Assembly: GCA_964490075.1 (NCBI GenBank)
Contig: CAZBBK010000039.1
Coordinates: 1 to 52,343 of the forward strand
Reading direction: 5' to 3'
DNA: 52,343 nt
Source: an uncultured Gemmatimonadota bacterium
Lineage (GTDB): Bacteria; GCA-2686955
Shown piece after piece: positions 44,983 to 52,343 of the stretch. Position numbers and translations under genes: made by a program. Under the pieces are notes generated by a model. It was not told the DNA's origin and ran no database searches. It worked only from the letters and a program-made list of their open reading frames with translations. Every line of letters starts with the position of its first letter. Position 1 is the first letter of the stretch.

Positions 44983-47280
44983 ATGAGCGCCGTTCTGGCC
45001 GAAATCTCGACGCGAGCCCGCGCGGCAGGCAGAAGCAGCCTGTTCGAGCACGAAGTCTACGCCCTCCTGGAGGAGGCGGGGATCGCCACGCCCGCGCATC
45101 TCTTCATCCCCGCGGGGGAACCGCTCTCGCCCGAGGCTCTCGATGCCATTCCCTCCTCCGAGGTGGTGCTGAAGATCGTGTCGGCCGACGTAACGCACAA
45201 GAGCGATGTCGGCGGGGTGCGATTTCTGGCTCGAGAGAGCGACGCGGTCGCCGCCGCAATCGCCGAGATGCTCGACACGGTCGCGCGGGCCGCCCCGGAG
45301 GCCGAAATTGCCGGAACCCTGATCGCCGAACGGATCGATTACGAGACCGATCTGCCCGGCTCGGAGTATCTGCTGAGCTGCCGCTGGGACGACGCCTTCG
45401 GTCCGGTGGTGGTCTTTGGCATCGGCGGCCTGCTCACCGAGTGGTATGCCGACGTCACCGAGGGGGGGGCGCAGACCATCGCGTCGGCCAGCGACGACGC
45501 GCTCGACCGGGCGATCCAGACGATCGCGAGGAGCCCGCTGGGCGTGCTGGCTCTCGAGCCCGGGCGCCTGCACCGCGACCCCCCGGCGCAAATGGAGACC
45601 TTGTCGCGGGCCTTGCACGCGGTGTCGAAGCTGGCGCGCCTGTGCCACCAGGGAAGCTGCATCGCGGAGCTGGAGATCAACCCGCTGGCGGCGCGGCGCG
45701 GACAGCTGGTGGCGGTCGACGGCTTCGCCCGTCTCGGCACACCGCCGGCGCACGACCGGGCGCCGCGACCGCTGGCGACGATCGCCGGGCTGCTGCACCC
45801 ACGCAGCGCGTGCGTGTTGGGAGCCTCGACCCGCGGCGCCAATGCCGGGCGGATCATCCTGCAGAACCTCAAGAGCGCCCCGGGCCTCGACTACGGGCAT
45901 CTCTATGCGATTCACGGCAAGGCCGAGCGCATCGATGGGATTCCCTGCCACGCGAGCATTGCCGAGCTGCCCGAGCGAGTCGACCTGGCGGTGGTGGCGC
46001 TGCCGGCCGATGCGGCCGTAGAGGCGATCGCCGAGCTGGTGCGAGCCGACAAGGCGCGTGCGATCATCCTGATCACCGGAGGCTTCGCCGAGACCGGCCA
46101 GACCGGACGCGCGCAGGCGGTGCGCGACACCATGCGCGAGGCGCGCGCGCGCGACGACGGCGGCGCGGTGCTGGTCGGCGGCAACTGCCTGGGCATCGTC
46201 AGCAAGCGTGAATACAACACCTTTTTCCTGCCTTCCTACAAGCTCCCCCTGAGCGACGCTCCGGGGAGCAACCTGGCGGTCATCAGCCAGTCGGGCGCCT
46301 ACCTGGTGTCGCTCTCGAGCAACCTCGACAGCATCGTCCATCCTCGGGCGTCGATCAGCTACGGCAACGAGATGGACCTCACCGCCTCGGATTTCTTCGA
46401 GTACTACCTCGACCACGAGCCCGACCTGCGGGTGTTCGGCTTCTACATCGAGGGTTTCGCGCCGGCGGAAGGAGAGCGCTTCGTGCGCTTGACCCGGCGT
46501 GCCACCGAGGAGGGCAAGGCGGTGGTGGTCTACAAGGCCGGCCGCACCGAGTTCGGAGCGCGTGCCGCCGCCAGCCACACCGCGTCGATGGTCGGCAACT
46601 ACGATGTGGCGCGTGCGTTGCTCGAGGATGCCGGTGCGCTGGTCACACGCACCCTGAACCGCTTCGAGGACTTCACCAAGATCCTGACCATGCTCGACCG
46701 GCGCATTCCGCGCGGCAAGCGGGTGGCGGTGGTCACCAACGCCGGCTTCGAGGCCGGGGCGGTCAGCGACCATCTCTACGACCTGGAGTTGGCCGAGCTC
46801 CAGGACGAGACGATCGCCAGGTTGAGAGATGTGCTGCCCGAGATCGCTCACGCCGGCAATCCCGTCGACACCACGCCGATGGCTGACAGCGAGGTGTTCT
46901 CGGCCTGCGTGGAGATCGTCGCCACCGACCCGGGTGTCGACATGCTGATCGCATCGGCGGTGCCGGCGACGCCGGCGCTCGACATCCTGGCACCCGACCT
47001 GAGCGGCGCCCATCCGGAAAACGTGTTCGCGATGAACTCGGTCCCGGCAAGGCTCTTCCGCACCTTCCAATCGATCGACAAGCCGATGGTCTGCGCGGTC
47101 GACTCGGGCCGGCTCTACGACCCCAGCGTGCTGCTGCTGCAACGCAACGGCATACCGGTCTATCGCAAGATCGACCGTGCCAGCCGGGCGCTGGCGGCGT
47201 TTCGTCATGTGCAGCAGTTGCGCGGTCACCAAGCTCTATCCGGATCAAACCCCAGCAAAGTCCGAGTGCTCCCTCTTTGA
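44983..47280 (+). CDS. ADP-forming acyl-CoA synthetase (acetate--CoA ligase family), ATP-grasp domain N-terminal
   Basis: VLKIVS..HKSDVGGV and ELEINPL (ATP-grasp), then CoA-binding domain, GGNCLG, SQSGA, YGNEMD, AAASHTA phospho-His loop. Confidence 0.92.
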   Translation: MSAVLAEISTRARAAGRSSLFEHEVYALLEEAGIATPAHLFIPAGEPLSPEALDAIPSSEVVLKIVSADVTHKSDVGGVRFLARESDAVAAAIAEMLDTVARAAPEAEIAGTLIAERIDYETDLPGSEYLLSCRWDDAFGPVVVFGIGGLLTEWYADVTEGGAQTIASASDDALDRAIQTIARSPLGVLALEPGRLHRDPPAQMETLSRALHAVSKLARLCHQGSCIAELEINPLAARRGQLVAVDGFARLGTPPAHDRAPRPLATIAGLLHPRSACVLGASTRGANAGRIILQNLKSAPGLDYGHLYAIHGKAERIDGIPCHASIAELPERVDLAVVALPADAAVEAIAELVRADKARAIILITGGFAETGQTGRAQAVRDTMREARARDDGGAVLVGGNCLGIVSKREYNTFFLPSYKLPLSDAPGSNLAVISQSGAYLVSLSSNLDSIVHPRASISYGNEMDLTASDFFEYYLDHEPDLRVFGFYIEGFAPAEGERFVRLTRRATEEGKAVVVYKAGRTEFGARAAASHTASMVGNYDVARALLEDAGALVTRTLNRFEDFTKILTMLDRRIPRGKRVAVVTNAGFEAGAVSDHLYDLELAELQDETIARLRDVLPEIAHAGNPVDTTPMADSEVFSACVEIVATDPGVDMLIASAVPATPALDILAPDLSGAHPENVFAMNSVPARLFRTFQSIDKPMVCAVDSGRLYDPSVLLLQRNGIPVYRKIDRASRALAAFRHVQQLRGHQALSGSNPSKVRVLPL

Positions 47281-48999
47281 GAGCCAGAGCTCTCGGTAGA
47301 GGGGGCACGAGGAAGCGAGATCGCGGTGTCGCCCGGCGCCGACCACGCGCCCTTGCTCCATCACCACGATTCGATCGGCCTGCGAGGCGAGCGCCAGAGA
47401 ATGGGTAATCACCAGCAGCGAAGGGCGCGGCTCGATCGATCGGATCGATTCGATCAGCTCTCGGGCGGTGCGGGCATCCAGATTCGCGGTTGGTTCATCC
47501 AGGACCAGCAGCGAGCCGCCCTGGATCAGGGCCCGCGCCAGAGCCAGGCGTTGGCGTTGTCCGCCGGACAGATCCCGCGCCCCCTCGTCGATCTCGCCGT
47601 TCAGACCACCTGGACGACCCTGCACGATCGACATCGCTTGCGCGGATCGAAGCCCTTTGGAGATCCATTCATCACCTCCCGGTGTCGTTCCCAGACAGAC
47701 GTTGTCTCGCAAAGGACCGGAGAAGAACACACCTGTCTGAAACGCCACGACGATCGCCGAGCGCAGCTCCTCGACCGCCAGGTGGGCGATGTTCCGTCCA
47801 TCGAGCGTGACCGACCCGGTCGATGGGTCGCGCAGGCGCACCAGAAGATCGGCCAGCGTCGACTTCCCACACCCCGAGGGACCAACCAGCGCCACGTGCT
47901 CTCCGGCGCGGAGATCGAAGCTACAACCGCTCAGAGCCGGCGTACCCTCAGGATAGGTGTAGCTTAGGTTCCGTACCGACAGCCCGGCGGCTCGGTGCTG
48001 CTCGGTCGTTCGCGGCCGCGGAGCGCGAGGTTCGACCGCGAGAGCAAGGATCTCGCCGATCCGGTCCAGCGCGACCAAGGAGCCCTGAGCGGTGACCAGC
48101 GTGCCCGCGATTGCAGACGCCGGCCCGAAGAGGTAGCCGAGAAATGCCTGAAAGGCCAACCATGTCCCGATCGACATGCGCTCCGCCATGATCTCACGGC
48201 CACATCCCCAGAACAGGATCAAGGGGGCGCATGCGCCGATCAGCCCCACCAGGGCGCCGGCGTTGCACGATGCCGTCGCGGATCGACGCTGCGCCTCGAT
48301 GGCACGATCCATCACGATGCCGGCCCTGCGCGCGGCGAAGAGATCCGCCAGGTAGGCCTTGATCGTGTGCGCGCCCGCCACCAACTCCTGCATGGCGCCG
48401 CGCTCGACGGCGTCGGTTTCCTGCACGCCGCGCGCGGTTCGGCTCAAGACACCGGCGCATCCGTGCGTTGCTAGCACGTAGGGAAGAACAAGCGCCAATG
48501 CGGTCCAGCCGAGACCCGGGTGCAGCCGCACCACCATGAATGCGCCCACGCCGAAGGTCAACGCATCTCGGAGCAGACCGAAGACGGTAGCCCCCATGAT
48601 CCCGCCCAGACGATCGCAGTCGCGTTGGATTCTGCCGACCAGATAGCCGCTCTTGAAGCGCGCCAGCTCTTCGCTGGGCAGTCGCAATACATGGGCCAGC
48701 AGATGGGCCTTGGTATCCCGTACGACTTCTTGACGGAAGCGGGCGAAGGCATAGCTCTGTGCGTACTCCAGAGCGGTTCGCAGTCCGACGATCGCGAAGC
48801 ACGCGGCGATGATTCCATCGAAGGTCGCGAACGCGCTCGCACCCCGCGGCAAGACCTCATCGATGATGTGCCGGGTGATCAGGGGCATCGGCAGCATGGT
48901 GCTCACCGATCCGAGCATCGCCGCGGCGCCCGCGACCGCCAGGCCGATATGCCTTCTGACCTGCGGTCGGATCGCTTCGACGCGCGCCACTTGAATCAC
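47245..48999 (-). CDS. ABC exporter, fused permease/ATPase (no C39 peptidase domain)
   Basis: N-terminal TM domain, GPSGCGKST, LSGGQRQR, LVLDEPTANLD, H-loop ITH. Confidence 0.93.
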   Translation of the reverse strand: MIQVARVEAIRPQVRRHIGLAVAGAAAMLGSVSTMLPMPLITRHIIDEVLPRGASAFATFDGIIAACFAIVGLRTALEYAQSYAFARFRQEVVRDTKAHLLAHVLRLPSEELARFKSGYLVGRIQRDCDRLGGIMGATVFGLLRDALTFGVGAFMVVRLHPGLGWTALALVLPYVLATHGCAGVLSRTARGVQETDAVERGAMQELVAGAHTIKAYLADLFAARRAGIVMDRAIEAQRRSATASCNAGALVGLIGACAPLILFWGCGREIMAERMSIGTWLAFQAFLGYLFGPASAIAGTLVTAQGSLVALDRIGEILALAVEPRAPRPRTTEQHRAAGLSVRNLSYTYPEGTPALSGCSFDLRAGEHVALVGPSGCGKSTLADLLVRLRDPSTGSVTLDGRNIAHLAVEELRSAIVVAFQTGVFFSGPLRDNVCLGTTPGGDEWISKGLRSAQAMSIVQGRPGGLNGEIDEGARDLSGGQRQRLALARALIQGGSLLVLDEPTANLDARTARELIESIRSIEPRPSLLVITHSLALASQADRIVVMEQGRVVGAGRHRDLASSCPLYRELWLSKREHSDFAGV

Positions 49000-49012: not shown

Positions 49013-51169
49013 TTACAACCACGAGAGCATGGCGACCTTGGTCAGGAGCGCCCACTCACCTTCGCGCCAGGTTCCGGATCGATTCAGTCCCGCATAGAAG
49101 ACCGCGTGACGCCAGCTGAGGCAGGCGAGCGCGTTGAGATCAAGCCAGGCCCTGGACCGCCAATCACTGCCCCAGCTCGTTGCGTCGACTCCCTGCGCGT
49201 AGAGCTGGAAGTAGGTCCGATCCGATACGCTGTAGCGAGGACGGATAGAGACGGTGGTCCAGTCGATCTCCTCCGCTCCGGGGGGGCGCTCCCACATTCG
49301 GTAGATATTGGTGTCGACGGTCAGCTGCCGCCCGATATTGGCGGTGCTCGAAAGCGACACCGATCGGAAGTCGACGCGCTCCGCCAGAGTGTAGTCGATC
49401 ATGTTGCCCGCGCCGGCGCTCAGCGTTGCCATGAGAGCGCGCGTGGGATTTGATCCGACGCCCGCGACGACAGAGCGCGTGTCATGGACCTCGCCAAAGT
49501 AGGTCGTCCGGCTCAGGTCGCCGTCGATCCACCCGCTCCACTGCTCCAGGGTTGTGACCGATAGTCCGGGGTTCCAGCTCCACGACCACCGGGGATCCCC
49601 CTCGTAGCGCGAGAAGCTCCCTTTCGATCCGATGCTGAGGGTGCGAATCCCAAGGCGCATCGGGTGTGGAGTCAGGAAGGCCGAGCCCGTCCATCGATCC
49701 TGGCCCGCCCACGGCACATAGCCCAGCTCGGAAGCCGAGAACTCGGTCGCCACATGGCGATAGGAGAGGGAGGCCGCCCGCGCCGCGTCGTAGAATCTGA
49801 GCTTTCCGTACGCCGCCAATCCCGAGGCGCCCTCGTGAACCGACTCGGCGACCTGCCCCTCGAAGTTCCAGTCGCGCGAAAGCTCGAGGTAGGTGTCGCC
49901 TCCGACGACCGTCTCGTTGCGGCTACCGCCGCCGGCGTGGGTCAAGGTGGCACCGACATCGGAGCCCTCACCGAAGTCTCGCGCGATCCTGAACACCGAG
50001 TACTGGGCGCGCGGCTCGGTCGACTCACCGGTCCAGGGGCTGACGTACGAGGTGCGTTCGGTGATCGAGTGCACCGCGGCGATCGAGTAGCGATCGACCT
50101 TGCCGGTCAGCTTCGTGCCGAAGAGAATCGGCACCAGCTCCCCATCGGCCAGCTTCTTGCCGATTCTGCGCGAGTAGAAGAGCTGGAAAGGTGTGTCGAA
50201 GAGATCGTTGCGTTCGGAGAACAGGGGACGGCGCTCGGCGTAGTAGGTCTCATAACGCGACAGGTTTACGTAATTGGGATCGGCGCTGATCTCGCCGAAG
50301 TCCGGATTGAGCGCCGCGTCGAGCACCATGGCGGAGCCGATTCGGACCTTGGCGCTGATCCCAAGCTCGGTTTCGGTTCTGAGCGCTTCACCCGCGGGCG
50401 AGCTGAACGAACGACTGGCGGCGGTTGGAACCAGGGCGATTCGCCCCGTATTGAAGGGACCGGAAAGACCGGTAACCGGGCGGGCATCGACCAGCTTGAC
50501 GATGGCCTCGCCGTCCCGCGGTCGAGAAAGCAACGATTCCTCGTTCAGTCGGTGAATCATGCGCCCGAAGTTGAGCGCGCAGCGCGGCGCTTCGCCGTCG
50601 GTGAATCGCAGCTCACGGAATGGCACCGCGATCTCAGCGTTCCAGCCTTCGTCGTGCACGGTGGCTGCCGCGCTCCACTCCGCGTCCCAGGTACGGTCCA
50701 CGGAGAGGCCGTCATCGGTGAGATGCGCGTCGCCGCGGGTGCCGGCGGCGCCGACCGAGAACAGATAGGCGGTCGATCCTTCGGCATCGGTGTCGATGAT
50801 CACGTAGGCGAGATCGCTCCCGCCTCCCGCATCGCGGTTGGCGATCCTGGCCTGGATCGCGCCCGGCTCGCTGTCGTGGCAACGAAACGAGAAGTAGAGC
50901 GCTTCGTGGTCGTAGCAGGCCTGGACCTCGGTCGGCATCGACGGTGCCTTGCCCGGGTCCGGCCAGTTGGTGATGAACCCGCCGTGACGCGGGCGCGATC
51001 TCCAGCAGGGGTCGTCTAGCTGGCCGTCGACCGTAGGCGACATCAACGCGAAGGACAGCTCGAGGACCTCTGTGGGCTGCGGATCCGCGAAGGCCGGATG
51101 GGTCACGGCGGCCACAGCGCAGAGGAGGAGAGGGACGAGAAGGCTGCTTGGCACGACAGCTCCAATCAT
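49013..51169 (-). CDS. CBM9-like + DUF5916-type outer-membrane beta-barrel protein
   Basis: Signal peptide after ATG 51169, PTVDGQLDDPCW, GWNAEIAVPFRELRF (CBM9-like), LNPDFGEI, ETYYAERRPLFSE, LFYSRRIG, then amphipathic strands. Confidence 0.85.
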   Translation of the reverse strand: MIGAVVPSSLLVPLLLCAVAAVTHPAFADPQPTEVLELSFALMSPTVDGQLDDPCWRSRPRHGGFITNWPDPGKAPSMPTEVQACYDHEALYFSFRCHDSEPGAIQARIANRDAGGGSDLAYVIIDTDAEGSTAYLFSVGAAGTRGDAHLTDDGLSVDRTWDAEWSAAATVHDEGWNAEIAVPFRELRFTDGEAPRCALNFGRMIHRLNEESLLSRPRDGEAIVKLVDARPVTGLSGPFNTGRIALVPTAASRSFSSPAGEALRTETELGISAKVRIGSAMVLDAALNPDFGEISADPNYVNLSRYETYYAERRPLFSERNDLFDTPFQLFYSRRIGKKLADGELVPILFGTKLTGKVDRYSIAAVHSITERTSYVSPWTGESTEPRAQYSVFRIARDFGEGSDVGATLTHAGGGSRNETVVGGDTYLELSRDWNFEGQVAESVHEGASGLAAYGKLRFYDAARAASLSYRHVATEFSASELGYVPWAGQDRWTGSAFLTPHPMRLGIRTLSIGSKGSFSRYEGDPRWSWSWNPGLSVTTLEQWSGWIDGDLSRTTYFGEVHDTRSVVAGVGSNPTRALMATLSAGAGNMIDYTLAERVDFRSVSLSSTANIGRQLTVDTNIYRMWERPPGAEEIDWTTVSIRPRYSVSDRTYFQLYAQGVDATSWGSDWRSRAWLDLNALACLSWRHAVFYAGLNRSGTWREGEWALLTKVAMLSWL

Positions 51170-51247
51170 GGCGACAGGCAATCGCGAGCGGTGTCTCGGT
51201 ATCGGTGAATGAGGAGGGAGTAACAACACAACGGCGGGATCTCGCTC

Positions 51248-51309
51248 GCCCGGAGCCGCGCGACTCAGGCATGACCAGCCGGTCGTCAGTGGGTCGCGCG
51301 GCTCCGGGC
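51248..51309. promoter_or_regulatory. Long RNA hairpin directly downstream of precursor genes (stabiliser/attenuator)
   Basis: 17-bp perfect inverted repeat GCCCGGAGCCGCGCGAC (51248-51264) / GTCGCGCGGCTCCGGGC (51293-51309) with a pairable interior. Confidence 0.7.
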
Positions 51310-51327
51310 ATCGATCGGGCTCCGTTG

Positions 51328-51477
51328 CTACTTGGAACCCTCGCCCTTGGTGATCTGGAACCTCGGCGCGGTGTCGTCGTTGTCGTGGCCGCAATTGCCG
51401 AACGTGCAAGCGTTGTTCCAGAGGCAGAAGCAAGGGAATGCGGGGTCGTGGTCGTGGGGGTTGCGAATCCAATCCAT
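51328..51477 (-). CDS. Cys-rich RiPP precursor peptide 2 (49 aa)
   Basis: Manual translation MDWIRNPHDHDPAFPCFCLWNNACTFGNCGHDNDDTAPRFQITKGEGSK*; AGGAG RBS 7 nt upstream; paralog of the adjacent peptide. Confidence 0.88.
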   Translation of the reverse strand: MDWIRNPHDHDPAFPCFCLWNNACTFGNCGHDNDDTAPRFQITKGEGSK

Positions 51478-51564
51478 GGGATCACTCCTGAGTACAGTGG
51501 TTGCTCAGGCGCCTCATCGATGCGCCGTCTCTGGGACGGAGCGAGAGCGCCTGCGCGGAGTCGG

Positions 51565-51714
51565 TCAGTTTTCGTCCTTGGCCGGTGCGATGGAGAACTG
51601 AGGTTGGTCGACGCATTTGCTGTCACCACAGTTGCCCTTGTCGCAACCGCGGTTGATGATGCAGAAGCAGGCGCCGGGAAGCTCTATCCTTGCAGGTTCT
51701 CGGATCCAGTCCAT
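51565..51714 (-). CDS. Cys-rich RiPP precursor peptide 1 (49 aa)
   Basis: Manual translation MDWIREPARIELPGACFCIINRGCDKGNCGDSKCVDQPQFSIAPAKDEN*; AGGAG RBS 7 nt upstream; follows the SPASM gene. Confidence 0.88.
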   Translation of the reverse strand: MDWIREPARIELPGACFCIINRGCDKGNCGDSKCVDQPQFSIAPAKDEN

Positions 51715-51851
51715 ATGTTCTCTCCTGGTTGTGGTGCTCTGCGGCTACCTGGTACTTCGGTGTCGGATGAGGGGTCGGAGGGGCTCGAATCATGGTGTAT
51801 TCCTCAGCGTCCGCATGAGTGGCGCGCGCCCATTGACGTCGCTGCTGTTGC

Positions 51852-52343
51852 TCAGGCGACGGTCGCTTGAACGCGCTCGAAACGTGTGACCTCTTCCTCG
51901 AGCTCGCAGGTCACGAAGTCTCGAAGCGATGACTCGAGCGGCGGGACCCCACAGCTGGGGCCGTCTGCTTCCACGCCCAGGCGTCGGCGCAGGGGACATC
52001 CACCCAGGCAGAGCGGGAGGCGCTCACAGGTCGAACACTCGGGATGATCGGCCGGGTTGAAGCTCATCCATCGGAGCCATTCCTGGTTCCAGATTTGGAA
52101 GGGCCGATCGGCATCCGCGGGAGGAAGGTGGCCGATGGTGCCTGAGGAATCGCCGAAGTGAACCCAGCATTTCACCAACTCGCCAAGTGGGCCGATGCAA
52201 AGCCCGTTCTTGGTCACCGCGGTGCACAGGCTGGAGATGCCGGGGTAGTGGGAGGCGTCGCTCGCGAGATTGGCGCAGCCGAGTCGATCCCGCGCGCGGC
52301 TCGCGAAGATCCGGTATTCGGCGCTCGGCAGGTAGAGGTCCGC
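51852..52343 (-). CDS. Radical SAM/SPASM-domain peptide maturase, C-terminal part (runs off right edge)
   Basis: Frame open from window end; CTAVTKNGLCIGPLGELVKCW and CSTCERLPLCLGGCP...C (Cx2Cx5Cx3C..C) SPASM pattern. The CxxxCxxC core is outside the window. Confidence 0.88.
   Translation of the reverse strand, partial: ADLYLPSAEYRIFASRARDRLGCANLASDASHYPGISSLCTAVTKNGLCIGPLGELVKCWVHFGDSSGTIGHLPPADADRPFQIWNQEWLRWMSFNPADHPECSTCERLPLCLGGCPLRRRLGVEADGPSCGVPPLESSLRDFVTCELEEEVTRFERVQATVA

What the first reader, a model, noticed from the sequence alone, without database searches (positions are those of the whole stretch)
51328..51714. Two unannotated paralogous 49-aa peptides sharing MDWIRxP leader, CFC-x2-N-x2-C-x2-GNCG core and PxFxI tail
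Seen: both ORFs are exactly 150 nt, both have AGGAG 7 nt before ATG, and they align without gaps with 18/49 identities in three blocks: MDWIR-P (1-7), C16-F-C18, N21, C24, G-N-C29-G, and P38-x-F40-x-I42; peptide 1 has a fifth Cys. Known: an NxxC motif is the site of a radical-SAM Cys-Asn beta-thioether in streptococcal NxxC peptides, and short leaders ending I-x-x-P followed by CxC recall Clo7bot-type precursors (from memory). Inference: N21-x-x-C24 (NRGC / NNAC) is a likely crosslink; the conserved C-terminal PxFxI may be a follower/export signal, unusual for this class.
Basis: partly seen in the sequence, partly recalled or inferred. Interest (0 to 1): 0.9.

Follow-up and report, generated by a model that had tools for sequence, protein, structure and literature searches.

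The report
Twin cysteine-rich RiPP precursor peptide genes
Two small neighbouring genes encode cysteine-rich peptides that a radical-SAM enzyme next door most likely cross-links into a secreted natural product, a rare local version of a common kind of bacterial gene cluster.

Summary
Two 150-nt ORFs lie on the minus strand (51714..51565 and 51477..51328). Each has AGGAG 7 nt before its ATG, and they share 18 of 49 residues without gaps (0 of 200,000 shuffles reach 18).

They are real genes:
- GC3 is 0.70 and 0.86, like neighbouring genes.
- 8 of the 18 shared residues use different codons.
- Homologous peptides sit in the same four-gene cassette (radical SAM/SPASM, peptide, DUF5916 barrel, ABC exporter) in 4 of 4 genomes of one GTDB family. 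That family belongs to a phylum with five species genomes.

No other member turned up among 1.84 billion protein representatives or in two metagenome scans.

The maturase is cut by the contig end, but a full 462-aa form exists in public data. It scores below every curated NCBIfam cut-off; the nearest families are TIGR04463, Clo7bot and CefB, and the nearest solved structure is CteB.

The leader is not unique. Cys-rich small ORFs beside related maturases in 5 of 6 unrelated genomes start M-x-[W/F/Y]-[I/L/V]-x-x-P.

NxxC is present in 4 of 5 family peptides. It is enriched across the wider set, but the chemistry is untested. The tail is well conserved only in the CFC-type subgroup (pepA, pepB, G003).

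Verdict: a new variant of a known kind, moderately interesting.

The parts
51852..52343 (-). C-terminal 163 codons of the radical SAM/SPASM maturase gene, cut by the contig end. It holds the SPASM Cys motifs, including CxxCx5Cx3C. The full 462-aa protein is on record as P0246.
   Evidence: (SPASM TIGR04085 40.7 bits against a cut-off of 27; Clo7bot 1.4e-12)
51722..51726 (-). Shine-Dalgarno AGGAG, 7 nt before the pepB ATG
51565..51714 (-). pepB, a 49-aa precursor with 5 Cys: MDWIREPARIELPGACFCIINRGCDKGNCGDSKCVDQPQFSIAPAKDEN. It is the likely orthologue of the single G003 peptide (23 identical residues of 45 aligned codons).
51485..51489 (-). Shine-Dalgarno AGGAG, 7 nt before the pepA ATG
51328..51477 (-). 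pepA, a 49-aa paralogous precursor with 4 Cys: MDWIRNPHDHDPAFPCFCLWNNACTFGNCGHDNDDTAPRFQITKGEGSK
51248..51309 (-). GC-rich hairpin with a 17-bp perfect stem, starting about 20 nt after the pepA stop. There is no U tract. It may be a partial terminator or an RNA-stabilising element after the precursor genes.
   Evidence: z = -3.74, 0 of 200 shuffles fold as well. The consensus terminator scan found none. G002 has a strong hairpin at the same place (z = -5.73); G003's is weaker (z = -1.83).
49013..51169 (-). Divergent DUF5916 protein of 718 aa: signal peptide, CBM9-like beta-sandwich, then a large outer-membrane-type beta-barrel
   Evidence: PF19313 68.1 bits, profile positions 4-98 only; AF2 pLDDT 86.9; CBM9 1i82 TMt 0.74; TonB-receptor and usher barrels TM 0.25-0.35
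47245..48999 (-). Fused permease-ATPase ABC exporter of 584 aa. It has no peptidase domain, because the transmembrane domain starts at residue 31. Its start lies 13 nt after the DUF5916 stop.

Best explanation
pepB and pepA are tandem paralogous precursor genes of a ribosomally made, post-translationally modified peptide (RiPP). They lie in a four-gene cassette: radical SAM/SPASM maturase, precursor(s), DUF5916 outer-membrane barrel, ABC exporter.

Shown:
- Both ORFs are under protein-level selection.
- The cassette is conserved in all four genomes of the organism's GTDB family, while its flanks differ.
- The maturase has a CteB-like three-part build: an N-terminal strand-helix domain, a radical-SAM core with CxxxCxxC, and a SPASM domain with all seven Cys.
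- The N-terminal M-x-W-[I/L]-x-x-P block is the local form of a leader motif shared by Cys-rich small ORFs next to related maturases in other phyla.

Inferred:
- The leader docks on the maturase's N-terminal RRE-like domain.
- The maturase then makes intramolecular cross-links from the conserved Cys (C16, C24, C29, plus C18 and C34 where present). These are most likely thioethers of the sacti/ranthipeptide type. N21-x-x-C24 is one candidate donor-acceptor pair.
- The hairpin after pepA raises precursor transcript levels relative to the downstream genes.
- The ABC exporter carries the product across the inner membrane and the cassette-specific barrel carries it across the outer membrane.
- The hydrophobic C-terminal patch may be an uncleaved export or recognition element.

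My odds for each step:
- Real RiPP precursors of this maturase: about 0.85.
- Thioether chemistry: about 0.6.
- Export by the ABC exporter plus the barrel: about 0.4.
For: Coding:
- GC3 is 0.70 (pepB) and 0.86 (pepA), against 0.76-0.81 in the neighbouring genes and 0.55 in the long overlapping ORFs.
- 8 of the 18 identical residues use different codons.
- pN is below pS in 5 of 5 peptide pairs.

Conservation:
- Peptides with M1, W3, P7, C16, C24 and C29 invariant lie between the maturase and DUF5916 in G000 (two copies), G003, G002 and G001. That is 4 of 4 genomes of family f1 and 0 of 1 in the sister family.
- The cassette's flanks differ between genomes.

Maturase:
- The full-length form P0246 is 462 aa, and its last 163 residues equal the window fragment.
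- NCBIfam best hits are TIGR04463 195 bits, Clo7bot 164 bits and CefB 158 bits.
- The best solved structure by sequence is CteB, 5wgg, 1.6e-13.
- The AF2 model of the G003 orthologue has pLDDT 90.8. Residues 1-86 form a strand-helix domain, and the best Foldseek hits are CteB with TM 0.60-0.66.
- The SPASM Cys are conserved in the window fragment.

Leader motif elsewhere: Cys-rich small ORFs next to TIGR04463-like maturases in 5 of 6 non-family genomes start M-x-[WFY]-[ILV]. 13 of the 15 aligned peptides have P at position 7.

Export genes: DUF5916 is modelled as a signal peptide, CBM9-like domain and large barrel. The ABC protein is an exporter type, and its start is 13 nt after the barrel gene's stop.
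Against: - There is no RNA, peptide or chemical evidence. The only runs holding this DNA are 4 DNA runs from one study.
- The maturase is far below every curated family cut-off, so no known chemistry can be transferred with confidence.
- The cassette contains no protease and no membrane-fusion protein, so leader removal and the periplasmic step are unexplained.
- N21 is not conserved in G003.
- DUF5916 genes elsewhere are not linked to such maturases: 0 of 30 loci from other places had one. The barrel's role therefore rests on synteny in four related genomes only.
- Part of the population carries a form in which the maturase frame diverges before the SPASM domain (P0003, and run X4).
Confidence: 0.7

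Rival explanations
1. The key modification is an NxxcB-type beta-thioether between C24 and the beta-carbon of N21.
For: - N-x-x-C is present in pepB, pepA, G002 and G001, which is 4 of 5 family peptides.
- Across 16 precursors of this maturase clade there are 17 N..C sites against 8.5 in shuffles (P about 0.0004; the sequences are related, so this is overstated).
- NxxcB makes an Asn beta-thioether and tolerates Ala, Gln and Asp as acceptor (passages of PMC9389541).
Against: - G003 has K-G-C at that place, with no Asn.
- C-x4-C spacing is just as enriched, 19 sites against 9.2.
- The maturase's nearest curated families are TIGR04463, Clo7bot and CefB, and its nearest structure is CteB, which makes a gamma-thioether to Thr according to passages of PMC10352776.
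- No NxxcB sequence or model was at hand to test kinship.
Confidence: 0.25
2. The maturase does other radical chemistry on these peptides. This could be C-C or C-O cross-links, epimerisation, or oxidation of Cys. In that case the Cys serve as metal or disulfide sites, not thioether donors.
For: The maturase is below all curated cut-offs. SPASM enzymes nearby in fold space include SuiB (Lys-Trp C-C link) and anSME. Conserved aromatic residues (W3, F17, F40) are present.
Against: The only residues invariant across the core are Cys. All the top-scoring curated families are maturases of Cys-rich peptides.
Confidence: 0.2
3. The product is a signal or metal-binding peptide that is taken up again. 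The DUF5916 barrel would then be its outer-membrane receptor or importer, not its exit channel.
For: The barrel's nearest folds include TonB-dependent receptors, and it carries a ligand-binding-type CBM9-like domain. The peptides are rich in Cys, Asp and Asn. From my own recall, not from any call: exporter-fold ABC proteins can import siderophores.
Against: The model shows no TonB-type plug, and TM-scores to the receptors are low, 0.25-0.35. The cassette has no periplasmic binding protein and no TonB system genes.
Confidence: 0.15
4. The ORFs are chance open frames in GC-rich DNA and encode nothing.
For: Many spurious long ORFs overlap this region. There is no expression evidence.
Against: - Synonymous codon differences at conserved residues, and pN below pS in 5 of 5 pairs.
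- GC3 typical of genes.
- Matched Shine-Dalgarno sites.
- Five homologues in syntenic position in four genomes.
Confidence: 0.03

Closest known systems
Predicted Cys-rich peptide systems of NCBIfam TIGR04463 (rSAM_vs_C_rich), TIGR04334 (Clo7bot) and NF038107 (CefB, Cys-every-fifth)
   Same: These are the best-scoring maturase families. Precursors are short and Cys-rich. Small ORFs next to TIGR04463-like maturases share the M-x-aromatic-[ILV]-x-x-P start and often a CxC-hydrophobic core. C-x4-C spacing is present in pepB and G002.
   Different: Scores are a third or less of the cut-offs: 195 of 525, 164 of 600 and 158 of 600. No curated peptide model matches pepA or pepB at E <= 1. Here the precursors follow the maturase, carry a conserved C-terminal extension, and are followed by a DUF5916 barrel. 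None of these families appears to be characterised in print in the library searched ('Clo7bot': 0 papers; none of the 15 listed papers concerns them).
CteB/CteA (thermocellin, a SCIFF ranthipeptide; PDB 5wgg, 5why)
   Same: Closest solved structure by both sequence and fold. It has the same build: N-terminal peptide-binding domain, radical-SAM core, seven-Cys SPASM domain. Its substrate is Cys-rich.
   Different: About 20% identity. The SCIFF maturase model scores 68 bits against a cut-off of 425. The precursors are unrelated in sequence.
NxxcB/NxxcA of streptococci
   Same: An N-x-x-C motif in a short precursor next to a radical SAM enzyme. The beta-thioether to Asn is documented (passages of PMC9389541).
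   Different: Different phylum and cluster make-up. The motif is missing in 1 of 5 family members. Kinship of the enzymes could not be tested here.
Gram-negative bacteriocin/RiPP export by a peptidase-ABC transporter, membrane fusion protein and TolC-type outer-membrane protein
   Same: An ABC exporter and an outer-membrane protein are encoded with the precursor. This scheme is described in passages of PMC10352776.
   Different: The ABC exporter has no peptidase domain, there is no membrane fusion protein, and the outer-membrane component is a DUF5916 barrel with a CBM9-like domain instead of TolC.

Membership tests
Clo7bot system (NCBIfam TIGR04334 maturase) | Maturase scores over the curated cut-off of 600 bits | tested here: not met
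   P0246 164.2 bits; G003 166.8 and G002 172.8 bits
Clo7bot system (NCBIfam TIGR04334 maturase) | Precursor matched by a curated NCBIfam peptide model | tested here: not met
   pepA and pepB match 0 NCBIfam families at E <= 1. Of the 15 aligned precursors, 1 hits CefA weakly and 1 hits an unrelated AMP family.
TIGR04463 family radical SAM/SPASM RiPP maturase | Maturase scores over the curated cut-off of 525 bits | tested here: not met
   195.3 bits (P0246); 182.9 and 236.8 bits (G003, G002)
Cys-every-fifth CefA/CefB (NF038108/NF038107) | CefB scores over 600 bits and the peptide matches the CefA model | tested here: not met
   CefB 157.8 bits. There is no CefA hit for pepA or pepB. C-x4-C spacing is nevertheless present (C24, C29, C34 in pepB) and enriched in the clade.
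NxxC radical-SAM RiPPs (NxxcA/NxxcB) | N-x-x-C motif in the precursor | tested here: inconclusive
   Present in 4 of 5 family peptides, absent in G003. Enriched 17 against 8.5 across 16 peptides.
NxxC radical-SAM RiPPs (NxxcA/NxxcB) | Maturase orthologous to NxxcB, and a Cys-to-Asn beta-thioether in the product | not testable with these tools
   No NxxcB sequence or model was available. The chemistry needs MS and NMR.
Sactipeptide/ranthipeptide class | Radical SAM enzyme with CxxxCxxC, a seven-Cys SPASM domain and an N-terminal peptide-recognition domain, next to a Cys-rich precursor | tested here: met
   (C102, C106 and C109 invariant; the SPASM Cys nearly invariant)
Sactipeptide/ranthipeptide class | Thioether bridges from Cys sulfur to a C-alpha, C-beta or C-gamma of another residue | not testable with these tools
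   Needs the modified peptide. Class definition taken from passages of PMC10288494.
SCIFF (TIGR03974 maturase) | Maturase scores over the cut-off of 425 bits | tested here: not met
   68.4 bits for G003
Type I secretion (HlyB-type ABC, membrane fusion protein, TolC) | ABC protein over the TIGR01846 cut-off; membrane fusion protein and TolC-like genes present | tested here: not met
   ABC protein scores 259.3 bits against a cut-off of 725.55. The cassette holds only the maturase, peptide(s), DUF5916 and ABC genes in three genomes.
DUF5916 (Pfam PF19313) | Score over the gathering cut-off of 22.6 bits | tested here: met
   68.1 bits, but only profile positions 4-98 of 572 match. The genome's second copy matches positions 2-528.

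The most novel reading that the evidence does not exclude
The cassette-specific DUF5916 barrel is a dedicated outer-membrane conduit for a cross-linked peptide, or its receptor. The conserved hydrophobic C-terminal patch of the precursor acts as an uncleaved recognition signal for the ABC exporter and barrel. This would be a RiPP secretion route in diderm bacteria without a membrane fusion protein or TolC. It would also give the first functional assignment for a branch of the widespread DUF5916 family.
Probability: 0.15. Interest if true: 0.7.

Novelty: new variant of a known kind. Interest (0 to 1): 0.45.

Why it matters
This adds a lineage-restricted precursor subfamily and an uncurated maturase clade to the radical-SAM Cys-rich RiPPs. 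It comes from an uncultured marine lineage whose GTDB phylum holds only five species genomes.

Three results may be of use beyond this window:
- The M-x-aromatic-[ILV]-x-x-P start is a cross-phylum leader signature. It could seed a search model for precursors of the TIGR04463, Clo7bot and CefB maturase clade, which curated peptide models largely miss (1 of 15 matched).
- N-x-x-C and C-x4-C are both enriched in these cores, which gives concrete cross-link hypotheses to test.
- The conserved linkage to a divergent DUF5916 barrel is a rare functional hint for a domain of unknown function. That domain was found in 59 of 301 sampled genomes, and 0 papers in the library mention it.

Tried and rejected
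- Co-fold of the DUF5916 protein (residues 30-718) with pepB: no verdict, score 0.00 in two runs and the controls were not run. This is not evidence either way.
- RNA evidence: no RNA holder was listed. The stretch is held by 4 DNA runs of one marine-metagenome study, one of which may be the source of this DNA.
- Wider homologue searches for the peptides found only the sequences already in hand: the word-index search with pepB, the profile of four peptides against 1.84 billion representatives, and a metagenome scan with the peptide alignment.
- A metagenome scan with the maturase alignment found nothing. A genome-contig scan with the G003 maturase found only itself.
- ESM Atlas with pepB: best score 0.89 to unnamed clusters, below the level worth following.
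- Pfam on the peptides: only a sub-threshold AZUL hit for pepB, taken as chance.
- Rfam on 50500-52343: only a sub-threshold miRNA model over the hairpin, E = 0.055, 23 bits against 90, taken as chance.
- The consensus promoter and terminator scan found nothing.
- PDB sequence search with the DUF5916 protein: 0 hits.
- The N-terminal part of the maturase was sought in the organism's own assembly and not found. It was recovered as protein P0246 instead.
- The locus of G267, the best TIGR04463 scorer, showed no Cys-rich small ORF on the script's filter or by eye.
- Literature searches for Clo7bot (0 papers), DUF5916 (0 papers) and OhkG/FlmE/CefB/TIGR04463/TIGR04334. In the last, the 15 listed of 291 papers were unrelated uses of 'flme' or 'ohkg'.
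- The supplementary dataset of PMC10288494, with 3,421 predicted sacti/ranthipeptide precursors, could hold members of this leader family. I did not see it.
- In one search my slice of the maturase fragment was one base out of frame. That line is not used.

Full report
**What is there.** The window is a whole contig (G000:C39). Its last 5 kb carries, on the minus strand:
- the 3' part of a radical SAM/SPASM gene (52343..51852, cut by the contig end);
- pepB (51714..51565);
- pepA (51477..51328);
- a 62-nt GC-rich hairpin (51309..51248);
- a DUF5916 gene (51169..49013);
- an ABC exporter gene (48999..47245).

The next gene is convergent. Both ORFs are 150 nt. AGGAG lies 7 nt before each ATG. 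The ungapped alignment has 18 of 49 identities at the listed positions, and pepB has a fifth Cys.

**Is it more than chance?** Yes.
- None of 200,000 shuffles of pepA reaches 18 identities with pepB; the maximum was 14.
- In the organism's own genome, pepB finds pepA at E = 1.2e-6 and nothing else below 0.77.
- GC3 is 0.70 and 0.86, like the neighbouring genes (0.76-0.81). The long ORFs that overlap the region have 0.55.
- Of the 18 shared residues, 8 are written with different codons.
- In five pairwise codon comparisons among the family's peptides, pN (0.35-0.46) is below pS (0.59-0.82) every time.

That test is not met, so the ORFs stand as genes.

**Relatives.** The organism's GTDB phylum holds five species genomes. 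One relative's record title calls it an uncultured Gemmatimonadota bacterium.

All four genomes of the organism's family carry maturase, peptide and DUF5916 in that order:
- G003 has a 49-aa MDWIHNP... peptide.
- G002 has a 52-aa MKWIVTP... peptide.
- G001 has a 57-aa MQWLSTP... peptide, on a 1.9-kb contig.

An ABC gene follows where the contig allows it, and the flanks differ between genomes. The sister-family genome G004 has neither the maturase nor the peptide.

Across the five peptides, M1, W3, P7, C16, C24 and C29 are invariant. Only G000 has two copies. pepB is closer to the G003 peptide (23 identical residues of 45 aligned codons) than pepA is (17 of 48). pepA therefore looks like the diverged duplicate.

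Outside this family I found no member:
- the word-index search returned only pepB itself;
- a profile of four peptides against 1.84 billion representatives returned only those four;
- two metagenome scans returned nothing.

**The maturase.** The window holds only the last 163 codons. These carry the SPASM Cys pattern (TIGR04085 40.7 bits against a cut-off of 27).

The gene is whole in the population:
- Protein P0246 (462 aa, seen on 5 contigs of up to 71 kb) ends with exactly the window's 163 residues.
- One run's contig covers 51100-52343 without a difference and continues 5.5 kb further.

P0246 is 59% identical to the G003 enzyme. It scores 195 bits on TIGR04463 (cut-off 525), 164 on Clo7bot (600), 158 on CefB (600) and 98 on PapB (340). 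It therefore belongs to the broad clade of Cys-rich-peptide maturases but to no curated family.

The closest solved protein is CteB (5wgg, 1.6e-13). An AlphaFold model of the G003 enzyme (pLDDT 90.8) has an N-terminal strand-helix domain at residues 1-86, then the radical-SAM core, then SPASM. It matches CteB best, with TM 0.60-0.66.

**The leader is a clade-wide motif.** I searched 301 sampled genomes with TIGR04463. Seven had hits at E <= 1e-60, none over the cut-off, and one of the seven was G002.

From the ten fetched loci outside the family, a script listed small ORFs of 20-100 aa with at least 3 Cys. From that list I picked by eye the ORFs outside the maturase frames that start M-x-aromatic-[ILV]. 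I dropped in-frame pieces of the maturase genes and obviously low-complexity frames.

Such ORFs occur in 5 of the 6 non-family genomes; none was seen for G267. Examples are MEWIMKP...DCFC, MLWIIKP..., MEWISNP..., MEFINIP... and MKYINTP.... In the alignment of 15 peptides (4 from the family, 11 from elsewhere), all have an aromatic residue at position 3 and I, L or V at position 4. Thirteen have P at position 7.

Curated peptide models miss nearly all of these: 1 of 15 hits CefA, at E = 1e-3.

**Core and NxxC.** Passages of PMC9389541 confirm that NxxcB makes a beta-thioether to Asn and tolerates other acceptors. N-x-x-C is present in 4 of 5 family peptides and absent in G003.

Over 16 peptides:
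- N..C occurs 17 times against 8.5 in shuffles (P about 0.0004).
- C....C occurs 19 times against 9.2.
- D..C is not enriched.

The sequences are related and I chose them for being Cys-rich, so these P values overstate the case. The motif is a fair hypothesis, not a finding.

**Tail.** [P/S]-[Q/R]-[F/L]-[Q/S]-I is shared by pepB, pepA and G003. G002 (LTVTF) and G001 (VVIM) have only a hydrophobic patch near a charged C-terminus. Peptides of other lineages lack it. Its function is open.

**The barrel.** The 718-aa protein matches DUF5916 only over profile positions 4-98. The genome's second, canonical copy matches positions 2-528 and has no ABC neighbour.

The model (pLDDT 86.9) shows a signal peptide, a CBM9-like sandwich (1i82, TMt 0.74) and a large barrel. 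The barrel resembles TonB-dependent receptors and ushers only loosely, with TM 0.25-0.35.

DUF5916 occurs in 59 of 301 sampled genomes. In 30 loci from other places, none had a maturase within about 1.5 kb and two had an ABC-like gene. Both positive-control loci were detected. The link to a RiPP cassette is therefore specific to this family.

**Mechanism and verdict.** I take the cassette to make a cross-linked peptide, most likely thioether-linked, from one or two precursors. The leader would be bound by the maturase's N-terminal domain. A hairpin after the last precursor gene (z = -3.74; G002 -5.73; G003 -1.83) would raise precursor message levels. Export would go through the ABC protein and the barrel.

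Only the coding status, the synteny and the enzyme's build are shown. The chemistry and the transport are inferred. This is a new variant of a known kind, worth a bench test but not a 0.9.

Noticed in passing
window 52289-52343 (contig end): The contig ends 54 nt beyond a branch point at 52289. In run X4 one contig joins other sequence there. Protein P0003 (368 aa) follows the maturase up to ...SRAR and then diverges into about 50 unrelated residues, so it lacks the SPASM domain. Part of the population may therefore carry a disrupted maturase. The divergent tail was not found in G000.
   Followed up: partly
window 51248-51309; L031 3123-3262; L028 9651-9790: A strong GC-rich hairpin without a U tract directly follows the last precursor gene in G000 (z = -3.74) and in G002 (z = -5.73). 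It is weaker in G003 (z = -1.83).
   Followed up: partly
L041, L044, L046 (G106:C15:53175-59746): Three tandem TIGR04463-like maturase genes lie here. The same 49-aa peptide (MEWISNP...) appears after at least two of them, which suggests a recently amplified cassette in an unrelated bacterium.
   Followed up: no
table (for example G004:C1:16460-16735, G106:C1:217250-217489, G150:C1:171889-172146): Many genomes have 700-800-aa frames that match DUF5916 only over profile positions ~5-97, like the cassette's barrel. This looks like a widespread divergent branch that the Pfam model covers poorly.
   Followed up: no
G000:C26:15387-17120 (L048): A second, canonical DUF5916 gene (864 aa, 183 bits) sits in the same genome. 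It is followed by a 216-aa ORF with no Pfam match, not by an ABC transporter.
   Followed up: partly
window 51148-51870 (+) and 50712-51629 (-): Long ORFs of 240 and 305 aa overlap both peptide genes. Their GC3 is only 0.55, so they are artefacts of the high G+C content and could mislead gene callers.
   Followed up: yes
G000:C15:90928-93130, C82:10100-10564, C67:22616-23038, C17:52747-53160: Further radical-SAM genes in the same genome match the Clo7bot model or P0003 weakly. Two of the matches lie close together on C15. These are possibly other peptide-modifying systems.
   Followed up: no
protein cluster of P0122: An unrelated 428-aa protein (P0245) is filed in the same 90% cluster as the 49-aa G003 peptide. 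This is probably a clustering artefact of the collection.
   Followed up: partly
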